A stretch of 5,362 bases of DNA from IMG/VR virus record IMGVR_UViG_2617270946_000017; one strand, written 5' to 3'. The position numbers and the translations under genes were made by a program. Under the pieces are notes generated by a model. That model saw only the letters and a list, made by a program, of their open reading frames with translations. It had not been told where the DNA came from and searched no databases. Shown in pieces: positions 2,552-2,695 of the stretch (the stretch's first letter is position 1; the number at the start of each line of letters is the position of its first letter). The stretch comes from a virus (Duplodnaviria; Heunggongvirae; Uroviricota; Caudoviricetes).

Positions 2552-2646
2552 TATCCCTCCCAATTATTGACATGGTGTTGACACCGGTAATATCTGTTAG
2601 GTAAAAAGGTGCACTGCATTTTTTGCTTTGGATATAACGATCTTTT

Positions 2647-2688
2647 TGCCGCCGGTTTCTTGTTTTCCCTTACCGGCGGCATTTTTTT
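2647..2688 (+). terminator. Strong rho-independent terminator-like hairpin oriented for plus-strand transcription (10-bp GC-rich stem TGCCGCCGGT / ACCGGCGGCA, 15-nt loop, T7 tail)
   Basis: Perfect 10-bp inverted repeat 2647-2656 / 2672-2681 followed by TTTTTTT 2682-2688. On the minus strand the hairpin is flanked by A-runs, so it is not a canonical terminator for the esterase gene that ends at 2696. Confidence 0.55.
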
Positions 2689-2695
2689 ATCCTGC

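What the first reader, a model, noticed from the sequence alone, without database searches (positions are those of the whole stretch)
2560..2690. Plus-strand terminator with upstream twin TTGACA hexamers in an otherwise minus-strand locus: possible small antisense RNA
A textbook intrinsic terminator (10-bp GC stem plus T7) is oriented for plus-strand transcription although both flanking genes are on the minus strand. About 65-80 bp upstream on the plus strand are two perfect TTGACA hexamers (2567-2572 and 2578-2583), but I could not find a convincing -10 at proper spacing (best TAATAT at 15 bp or TAAAAA at 18 bp). If a transcript starts here, it would be a roughly 70-100 nt RNA antisense to the 5' leader of the 60-aa membrane protein, the layout seen in type I toxin-antitoxin loci. 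Alternatively the hairpin is a 3' stabiliser of the esterase mRNA.
Basis: seen in the sequence. Interest (0 to 1): 0.45.

Follow-up and report, generated by a model that had tools for sequence, protein, structure and literature searches.

The report
Prophage small RNA gene, EcOnc33 type
The plus-strand promoter and terminator are real and mark a roughly 77-nt prophage small-RNA gene, a sequence variant of EcOnc33, an Hfq-bound sRNA already detected in E. coli O157:H7; it is an ordinary member of a known kind, not a toxin-antitoxin locus.

Summary
A perfect 10-bp hairpin plus T7 lies at 2647-2688 on the plus strand, and TTGACA (2578-2583), 18 bp, TAAAAA (2602-2607) lies upstream. The 144-bp gap lies between a sialate-esterase gene and a DUF1378 gene, both on the minus strand. 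It is 81% identical to the matching gap of prophage Sp6 in E. coli O157:H7 Sakai. That gap encodes EcOnc33, an Hfq-crosslinked sRNA (Northern ~71 nt; Tree 2014). Published RNase E-CLASH reads of EcOnc33 map exactly to that gap, on the strand antisense to the esterase. They show its 5' seed joined to the arcA start region. Across 12 variants the proximal TTGACA, TAAAAA and the terminator are conserved. The distal TTGACA and the seed vary. In one variant an 11-bp deletion moves the distal hexamer into the -35 position at 17-bp spacing. PasA and PasC of EPEC occupy the same slot in the same orientation. Their sequence homology to this RNA is not established. The type I toxin-antitoxin reading is not supported: the RNA ends about 60 nt upstream of the DUF1378 start codon, and the slot follows the esterase rather than DUF1378. 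Here the module sits in a Mu-like prophage. Verdict: new member of a known kind; interest is low to moderate.

The parts
2567..2572 (+). Distal TTGACA hexamer; not the -35 and not conserved
   Evidence: It reads TTGATA, TCGACA, TTGGCA or TTAATA in other variants. It is also one arm of a 9-nt imperfect inverted repeat with the DUF1378 start-codon region.
2578..2583 (+). -35 hexamer TTGACA of the sRNA promoter
   Evidence: Invariant in 11 of 12 variants. In the twelfth (L007) an 11-bp deletion puts the distal TTGACA in its place, 17 bp from TAAAAA. The composite motif is expected 0.04 times per window.
2602..2607 (+). -10 hexamer TAAAAA, 18-bp spacer
   Evidence: Invariant in all 12 variants. 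The same TTGACA-17-TAAAAA is found in the syntenic unit of Sp5. Promoter activity is inferred, not measured.
2611..2689 (+). Predicted sRNA transcript, about 76-79 nt, with the 5' end estimated at 2611-2615
   Evidence: 81% identical to Sakai Sp6 EcOnc33. The covariance model of the family scores it 88.5 bits, E 4e-17, although the window sequence was itself in the training alignment. The 5' boundary is inferred from the EcOnc33 CRAC peak and CLASH reads.
2613..2634 (+). Single-stranded 5' seed region ACUGCAUUUUUUGCUUUGGAUA
   Evidence: The homologous segment of EcOnc33 (CCUGCAUGUUUUGCUUUGGAU) is the part found joined to arcA and ECs0890 mRNAs in CLASH. The window variant differs at 3 positions.
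2647..2688 (+). Intrinsic terminator: 10-bp stem, 15-nt loop UUCUUGUUUUCCCUU, U7
   Evidence: The stem is kept in all variants, with two G-C to G-U changes and one mismatch at the top. The loop core CTTGTTTTCCCT is invariant in the BLAST-derived variants.
2696..4609 (-). SASA/DUF6645 sialate O-acetylesterase (NanS-p-like) gene; its stop codon lies 7 nt beyond the sRNA U-tract
   Evidence: Pfam SASA 7.5e-14 and DUF6645 1.6e-43; same neighbour in all homologous loci.
2369..2551 (-). DUF1378 60-aa protein with a hydrophobic N-terminal segment; the gene next to the sRNA promoter
   Evidence: Pfam DUF1378 9.4e-32; PHROG 494, function unknown.
2079..2333 (-). DUF826 protein, third gene of the transferred module
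   Evidence: Pfam DUF826 6.4e-16; travels with the module in both lambdoid and Mu-like contexts.

Best explanation
The intergenic region 2552-2695 carries an independent small-RNA gene on the plus strand. A sigma-70-type promoter (TTGACA 2578-2583, 18 bp, TAAAAA 2602-2607) starts transcription near 2611-2615. The hairpin plus U7 at 2647-2688 ends it. The product is an RNA of about 77 nt that converges on the esterase gene. It is a sequence variant of EcOnc33, the sRNA in the same slot of O157:H7 prophage Sp6. By analogy it binds Hfq through its terminator U-tail and the U-rich stretch before the stem. It then uses its unstructured 5' segment (CUGCAUUUUUUGCUUUGGAU) to pair in trans with mRNAs. 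For the orthologue the best-scored EcOnc33 row among those read in the published table (two of 18 parts) is the arcA translation-initiation region. Shown here: the sequence elements, the homology, the synteny and the conservation pattern. Shown in the literature for the orthologue: expression, Hfq binding and trans-pairing. Inferred only: expression and targets of this particular variant.
For: Sequence elements confirmed. The fold shows an open 5' region plus terminator, z = -4.66. The gap is 81.4% identical over 149 nt (E 2e-31) to a single-copy locus in O157:H7 genomes; 326 genomes fall in the 80-90% identity band. That locus is the ECs_1527 (esterase) to ECs_1528 (DUF1378) gap of prophage Sp6 in Sakai. 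Tree et al. 2014 Table S2 lists EcOnc33 in Sp6 on the minus strand, with Hfq CRAC peaks in 5 of 5 datasets, a terminator and a Northern band of ~71 nt. Waters et al. 2017 CLASH reads labelled EcOnc33 (CCTGCATGTTTTGCTTTGGAT and CCTGCCCCGGCGGCCTTT) map uniquely to that gap, antisense to the esterase. This also fixes the coordinate offset between genome versions at +141, consistent. The EcOnc33-ECs5359 hybrid was seen in both orientations and in replicates, FDR 2.7e-4. ECs_5359 is arcA and the hybrid covers its start codon. The predicted duplex is -20.7 kcal/mol, reached by 14 of 1000 shuffles. A second hybrid with ECs0890 uses the same seed. Across 12 distinct variants the -35, the -10 and the terminator are conserved, while the distal hexamer and the seed vary. 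An 11-bp deletion in one variant restores TTGACA-17-TAAAAA. No conserved ORF spans the gap.
Against: No expression data exist for this strain or this variant. The -10 hexamer TAAAAA lacks the usual T at its last position, so promoter strength is uncertain. No compensatory base changes are available to prove the structure; the stem is nearly invariant. The IMG/VR variants were recovered with a pattern that fixed the 5' arm and the loop. The gap as a whole (81%) is no better conserved than its neighbours: DUF1378 is 80% and the esterase 3' end 91% identical. The window variant has 3 seed substitutions, and its predicted arcA duplex is weaker and not significant (-16.0 kcal/mol, 80 of 1000 shuffles). 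Its targets are therefore unknown. The Sakai RNA is about 82 nt by sequence but ~71 nt on the Northern blot, so the exact 5' end is not settled.
Confidence: 0.8

Rival explanations
1. Type I toxin-antitoxin-like or purely cis-antisense role. The plus-strand RNA exists mainly to pair with the perfectly complementary esterase-DUF1378 intercistronic mRNA and so to control DUF1378, a possibly membrane-toxic 60-aa protein, or to control processing of the phage late transcript.
For: The RNA is convergent with, and fully complementary to, any read-through transcript from the esterase into DUF1378. No separate minus-strand promoter was found in the gap. DUF1378 is small with a hydrophobic N-terminal segment. 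All 12 EcOnc33-type variants sit next to DUF1378. An unrelated-bodied unit with the same promoter occupies the same gap in Sp5, as a sequence-independent cis function would allow.
Against: The RNA's 5' end (~2613) lies about 60 nt upstream of the DUF1378 AUG (2551) and does not cover its Shine-Dalgarno sequence or coding region. PasA and PasC occupy the same slot behind the esterase without DUF1378: a holin gene or an IS element follows instead. The slot is therefore tied to the esterase 3' end. The orthologue is Hfq-bound and forms hybrids with core-genome mRNAs. DUF1378 has no known toxicity (PHROG 494 unknown; only two papers in the library mention the family, neither on toxicity).
Confidence: 0.08
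2. There is no plus-strand transcript. The hairpin only protects or marks the 3' end of the esterase mRNA, and the TTGACA hexamers are incidental.
For: The hairpin begins 15 nt after the esterase stop codon. Its complement is nearly as stable on the minus strand (-21.3 kcal/mol, z = -3.44). The -10 hexamer is non-canonical.
Against: The U-tract follows the stem on the plus strand only; the minus strand has A-runs. The -35, the spacer length and the -10 are conserved, and are restored after a deletion. The orthologous plus-sense RNA was detected by Hfq CRAC, Northern blot and CLASH.
Confidence: 0.05
3. The gap encodes a small protein: the 43-aa minus-strand ORF 2551-2682, whose stop overlaps the DUF1378 start as TAATG.
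For: The ORF is open in the window, and the stop/start overlap looks like translational coupling.
Against: The frame is broken by stop codons or frameshifts in all other sequence variants examined; it stays open only in L039, which differs from the window by a single T in the T-run. It has no recognisable ribosome-binding site, and its ATG lies at the base of the terminator stem.
Confidence: 0.02

Closest known systems
EcOnc33, the Hfq-binding sRNA of E. coli O157:H7 Sakai prophage Sp6 (Tree et al. 2014, PMC4104026; Waters et al. 2017, PMC5286369)
   Same: Same slot (esterase stop to DUF1378 start), same convergent orientation, same promoter (TTGACA, 18 bp, TAAAAA) and same terminator stem and loop core. 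Overall identity is 81%; the family model scores the window copy 88.5 bits.
   Different: Three substitutions in the 5' seed (ACUGCAUU vs CCUGCAUG). The terminator loop is 6 nt shorter and the stem has one extra U-A pair. The gene is carried by a Mu-like prophage instead of a lambdoid one. EcOnc33 has no assigned function and no Rfam family.
PasA and PasC, prophage sRNAs of EPEC E2348/69 (Pearl Mizrahi et al. 2021, PMC8550237; Zhu, Shabalina and Storz 2026 preprint)
   Same: Same syntenic slot immediately 3' of a SASA esterase gene, same antisense '> < >' layout, similar size (79-85 nt), Hfq-dependent, terminator abutting the esterase stop. The promoter has a similar build: TTGACA ... CTGT ... 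AAAA.
   Different: The RNA body is not detectably homologous. nhmmer matches only the promoter of a neighbouring unit, E 0.065. The covariance model gives 15-16 bits, E 0.4-0.6. The downstream neighbour is a holin gene or an IS element, not DUF1378.
Esr41 (Rfam RF02676), sRNA of the EHEC island SpLE1
   Same: Similar length, a U-rich 5' single-stranded seed (CAUUUU...) and a GC-rich terminator with U7. It is the only Rfam family that aligns end to end. An Esr41-like unit occupies the same slot in Sp5.
   Different: The score is 22.2 bits against a gathering score of 102. The Sakai EcOnc33 itself gives no Esr41 hit. Esr41 has a different promoter and a different genomic context.
AsxR/AgvB anti-sRNAs (Rfam RF02703 and RF02702)
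   Same: They are also convergent sRNA genes placed after 'moron' genes downstream of PR' in lambdoid prophages, and they are Hfq-bound.
   Different: There is no Rfam hit in the window. They lie upstream of the esterase, after stx or the tRNAs, not downstream of it. They are shorter, 51-60 nt.
Type I toxin-antitoxin loci (hok/sok, tisB/istR-1, ibs/sib)
   Same: A small hydrophobic protein gene with a small RNA gene on the opposite strand nearby.
   Different: The RNA does not overlap the DUF1378 coding region or ribosome-binding site. The sRNA slot is also found without DUF1378. The orthologue is an Hfq-bound, trans-pairing RNA. No toxicity is known for DUF1378.

Membership tests
EcOnc33-type prophage sRNA | Sequence homology across promoter, body and terminator | tested here: met
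   81.4% identity over 149 nt, E 2e-31; alignments A2 and A3; family model 88.5 bits, with the window included in training.
EcOnc33-type prophage sRNA | Synteny and orientation: between the esterase stop and the DUF1378 start, convergent with the esterase | tested here: met
EcOnc33-type prophage sRNA | Intact promoter hexamers and intrinsic terminator | tested here: met
   TTGACA-18-TAAAAA and a 10-bp stem plus U7; conserved across variants.
EcOnc33-type prophage sRNA | Expressed as a discrete RNA of about 70-80 nt that binds Hfq | not testable with these tools
   Shown only for the Sakai orthologue.
EcOnc33-type prophage sRNA | Same seed sequence, and hence the same targets such as the arcA start region | tested here: inconclusive
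   Three seed substitutions. The arcA duplex is -16.0 kcal/mol against -20.7 for EcOnc33, reached by 80 of 1000 shuffles.
PasA/PasC sRNAs | Detectable sequence or structure homology of the RNA | tested here: not met
   nhmmer E 0.065, promoter only; covariance model 15-16 bits, E 0.4-0.6.
PasA/PasC sRNAs | Slot 3' of a SASA esterase gene, antisense orientation | tested here: met
Esr41 (RF02676) | Score at or above the Rfam gathering threshold of 102 bits | tested here: not met
   22.2 bits.
AsxR/AgvB anti-sRNAs | Match to RF02703 or RF02702 | tested here: not met
   No hit at E up to 10.
Type I toxin-antitoxin | The antisense RNA overlaps the toxin mRNA translation-initiation region or coding sequence, or a defined standby site | tested here: not met
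   The RNA spans 2611-2689 and the DUF1378 AUG is at 2551, so there is a gap of about 60 nt that holds the sRNA promoter. Pairing with an upstream leader of a read-through mRNA remains possible.
Type I toxin-antitoxin | The RNA and the small protein gene are strictly coupled | tested here: not met
   Same-slot sRNAs PasA and PasC lack DUF1378. O157 genomes mostly show one EcOnc33-type place per genome, although a second DUF1378-type gene sits beside a different sRNA unit in Sp5.
Type I toxin-antitoxin | The small protein is toxic when over-produced | not testable with these tools
   No data; DUF1378 and PHROG 494 have unknown function.

The most novel reading that the evidence does not exclude
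The slot behind NanS-p-type esterase genes may be a modular sRNA cassette: a conserved promoter (TTGACA-17/18-TAAAAA) and a terminator frame a swappable seed. The EcOnc33, Esr41-like and PasA/PasC types would be its versions. The cassette travels with the esterase between lambdoid and Mu-like phages. In this reading the window's seed variant has a retargeted regulon, possibly still touching the ArcA redox regulator. It may also act in cis on the esterase-DUF1378 junction of the phage transcript in a type-I-antitoxin-like way.
Probability: 0.12. Interest if true: 0.55.

Novelty: new member of a known kind. Interest (0 to 1): 0.3.

Why it matters
Prophage sRNAs link horizontally acquired elements to core regulation, as Esr41, AsxR/AgvB, HnrS and the Pas sRNAs do. 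EcOnc33 was detected in 2014 but has never been characterised and is not in Rfam, so annotation pipelines miss it. This window shows that the family has seed variants. It also shows that the esterase-sRNA-DUF1378-DUF826 module has moved from lambdoid late operons into a transposing Mu-like prophage found in non-O157 E. coli. The published hybrid between the orthologue and the arcA start codon gives a concrete, testable hypothesis: prophage control of the ArcA redox regulon.

Tried and rejected
1. Rfam search of the whole window and of the gap alone found only a sub-threshold Esr41 match, 22 bits against 102.
2. The phage GenBank collection has no match to the gap even at blastn sensitivity; homologues were found only in E. 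coli genomes and IMG/VR contigs.
3. The GTDB species representatives gave nothing, either with the DUF1378 protein or with the terminator pattern.
4. Homology to PasA/PasC was tested with MAFFT, nhmmer and a covariance model. There is only marginal promoter similarity. The three best non-self model hits do fall on the syntenic units, but at E 0.35-0.6, so the relationship is left open.
5. Covariation support for the terminator is unavailable because the stem is almost invariant.
6. The 43-aa ORF across the gap is rejected because it is broken in the other variants.
7. The inverted repeat that would sequester the DUF1378 start codon is not maintained in the O157 variant.
8. A search for TSS and Term-seq tables in Sy et al. 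2020 found no supplementary files held.
9. No paper in the searched library mentions EcOnc33 in its main text.

Full report
OBSERVATION. TTGACA occurs at 2567-2572 and 2578-2583. TAAAAA at 2602-2607 lies 18 bp after the second hexamer. A perfect 10-nt inverted repeat, TGCCGCCGGT / ACCGGCGGCA, lies at 2647-2656 / 2672-2681 with a 15-nt loop, followed by seven T at 2682-2688. The U-tract exists only for plus-strand transcription; the minus-strand RNA would have CAAAAAGAUCG after the stem.

The automatic scan missed both elements for technical reasons. It allows loops of 3-8 nt only, and it requires a T at the sixth position of the -10 hexamer. Six TTGACA hexamers in the window are not remarkable in themselves (28 of 200 shuffles). 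The composite TTGACA-N18-TAAAAA is remarkable: 0.04 are expected per window with one mismatch allowed, and one exact copy is seen. RNA 2611-2689 folds into a weakly structured 5' region plus the terminator hairpin at -23.6 kcal/mol, z = -4.66.

CONTEXT. The window is the right end of a Mu-like prophage. It carries a Com zinc-ribbon protein and Mom (470-1406, minus strand) and a Gin/Hin-type invertase (4695-5267, minus strand). In a 100%-identical relative these genes are followed by Mu-type tail, baseplate, Mor and lysis genes. Between the invertase and com/mom sits a three-gene module that normally belongs to lambdoid late operons. It consists of a SASA/DUF6645 sialate esterase (NanS-p-like, 2696-4609), DUF1378 (2369-2551) and DUF826 (2079-2333), all on the minus strand. 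The finding is the 144-bp gap between the esterase and DUF1378.

WHAT IT IS. The gap has homologues in 361 of 5426 complete E. coli genomes. Twenty-one are at least 99% identical, and 326 fall in the 80-90% identity band. The sampled rows of that band are nearly all O157:H7 and carry one copy per genome. In those loci the gap lies in a lambdoid prophage in the order Q, esterase, gap, DUF1378, DUF826, holin, lysozyme. In strain Sakai the locus is prophage Sp6, between ECs_1527 and ECs_1528.

Tree et al. 2014 (PMC4104026, Table S2) list EcOnc33 in Sp6 on the minus strand, that is, antisense to ECs_1527. It gave an Hfq-crosslinking peak in 5 of 5 datasets, has a predicted Rho-independent terminator, and gave a Northern band of ~71 nt. 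Their coordinates refer to the earlier genome version. Rfam hits for Esr41 and for an AgvB-type RNA on either side gave an offset of about +140. Actual reads from the RNase E-CLASH tables of Waters et al. 2017 (PMC5286369) settle the matter. The EcOnc33 fragments CCTGCATGTTTTGCTTTGGAT and CCTGCCCCGGCGGCCTTT each map once in the Sp6 locus. They lie on the strand antisense to the esterase, at the predicted 5' region and at the 3' arm of the terminator (offset +141). The O157 counterpart of the window's candidate is therefore an experimentally detected, Hfq-bound sRNA.

CONSERVATION PATTERN. Five BLAST-derived loci and 50 IMG/VR contigs give 12 distinct sequence variants. The IMG/VR contigs were found with a pattern that fixes the 5' stem arm and the loop, which is a bias to keep in mind.

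- The proximal TTGACA is invariant where it is present, and TAAAAA is invariant in all variants.
- The distal 'twin' hexamer is free to vary (TTGATA, TCGACA, TTGGCA, TTAATA).
- In one variant (L007) an 11-bp deletion removes the proximal hexamer. The distal TTGACA then lies exactly 17 bp from TAAAAA. This natural experiment argues that TTGACA-17/18-TAAAAA is the working promoter.
- The terminator stem is kept, with two G-C to G-U changes and one mismatch at the top. No compensatory double changes are available.
- The 5' segment that acts as the seed in EcOnc33 varies between variants. The window differs at three positions.
- The 12-nt loop core CTTGTTTTCCCT is invariant even in the unbiased BLAST set. 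This remains unexplained.

Taken as a whole, the gap (81% identical to O157) is no better conserved than DUF1378 (80%) or the esterase 3' end (91%). The argument therefore rests on the pattern of conservation, not on its level. The 43-aa minus-strand ORF across the gap is broken in all other sequence variants, apart from the near-identical L039.

MECHANISM. For the orthologue, CLASH recovered EcOnc33 joined to ECs5359 in both orientations and in replicate experiments, FDR 2.7e-4. ECs_5359 is arcA, and the mRNA half of the hybrid spans its Shine-Dalgarno region and start codon. The predicted duplex is -20.7 kcal/mol, reached by 14 of 1000 shuffles. A second hybrid, with ECs0890, uses the same 5' segment. 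I read only the first two of the 18 parts of that table, so most of the roughly 40 EcOnc33 rows were not seen.

The most likely mode of action is therefore that of a classical Hfq-dependent, trans-acting, base-pairing sRNA. It has a U7 tail, a U-rich stretch before the terminator and an open 5' seed. For the window variant the arcA duplex is weaker and not significant (-16.0 kcal/mol, 80 of 1000 shuffles). Its targets may differ and are unknown. Expression in this strain is inferred from the intact promoter and terminator; it has not been shown.

RIVALS. The type I toxin-antitoxin reading fails two defining tests. First, the RNA does not overlap the DUF1378 ribosome-binding site or coding region; about 60 nt, which hold the sRNA's own promoter, separate them. 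Second, the slot is tied to the esterase and not to DUF1378. In EPEC E2348/69, PasA and PasC sit in the same place and orientation ('> < >'; Pearl Mizrahi et al. 2021, Table S6), and a holin gene or an IS element follows them.

A cis-antisense effect on a read-through esterase-DUF1378 transcript cannot be excluded, and I give it 0.08. The 'mRNA 3' stabiliser only' reading cannot explain the strand-specific U-tract, the conserved promoter or the published plus-sense RNA (0.05).

RELATION TO KNOWN FAMILIES. No Rfam family reaches its threshold. Esr41 gives 22 bits against 102, and the Sakai EcOnc33 gives no Esr41 hit at all. The same slot in the Stx2 phage Sp5 holds a unit with the same promoter (TTGACA-17-TAAAAA), a terminator abutting the esterase stop and an Esr41-like body (28 bits).

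A covariance model of the EcOnc33 family ranks the syntenic units of Sp5, PasC and the esterase-proximal unit of PP2 as its three best non-self hits in 63 kb. Their E values are only 0.35-0.6. nhmmer finds only promoter similarity, E 0.065. PasA, PasC and Esr41-like units are therefore positional analogues and possibly distant relatives; membership in those families is not shown. Membership in the EcOnc33 family is shown.

VERDICT. This is a real sRNA gene and a new sequence variant and host context of a family that has been detected but not characterised. The kind itself, convergent Hfq sRNAs behind prophage moron genes, has been known since 2014. The result is useful for annotation and gives a testable arcA hypothesis, but it would not surprise a specialist. 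Interest 0.3.

Noticed in passing
window 1-342: Bases 1-337 are the 3' part of the core gene malX (100% identical in intact-malX strains). The Mu-like prophage end (TGAAGCGG..., about 327-342) is therefore inserted inside malX. The same prophage lies next to citE in strain TOE17, as expected for a transposing Mu-like phage.
   Followed up: partly
window 2079-4609; loci L012-L061: The esterase-sRNA-DUF1378-DUF826 module occurs on two unrelated phage backbones. One is the lambdoid late operon, with Q and a holin. The other is a Mu-like phage, between the invertase and com/mom. This implies that the whole module was transferred between backbones.
   Followed up: partly
window 2657-2671: The terminator loop core CTTGTTTTCCCT is invariant in all variants, including the BLAST-derived ones, although the 5' seed varies. 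It might be a second, anti-Shine-Dalgarno-like pairing site or an Hfq contact. Unexplained.
   Followed up: no
window 2545-2573: An imperfect 9-nt inverted repeat (ATGTCATTA / TATTGACAT) would place the DUF1378 start codon in a stem and its Shine-Dalgarno sequence in the loop of the minus-strand mRNA. The distal TTGACA is one arm. The pairing is not maintained in the O157 variant.
   Followed up: partly
window 2551-2682 (minus strand): A 43-aa ORF has a stop codon that overlaps the DUF1378 start (TAATG). It is open only in the window-type variant and broken in the other variants.
   Followed up: yes
window 1405-1429: A perfect GATC-rich palindrome, AATCGATCGACAAAAACGATCGATT, lies just upstream of com. 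It gives a weak IS102-RNA Rfam match at 21 bits. From memory, it resembles the Dam/OxyR-controlled mom promoter region of phage Mu.
   Followed up: no
window 1618-1911 (plus strand): A 97-aa ORF on the opposite strand between DUF826 and com has no Pfam or PHROG match. Two promoter-like sites lie at 1597-1683. RefSeq annotates it as a hypothetical protein.
   Followed up: no
L062 5086-5220 (Sakai Sp5, Stx2 phage): The esterase-DUF1378 gap of the Stx2 phage carries an apparent convergent sRNA gene: TTGACA-17-TAAAAA, an Esr41-like body (28 bits) and a terminator. It is not in the EcOnc list of Tree et al. 2014.
   Followed up: partly
L002 2455-2600 (E2348/69 PP2): Between PasA and the esterase stop lies a second unit with twin hexamers (TTGATA-N5-TTGACA), like the window, and a PasC-like terminator. 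A CLASH read of EcOnc51 (the Sakai PasA homologue) whose sequence matches this unit's promoter-like stretch suggests that the region is transcribed in the Sakai counterpart.
   Followed up: no
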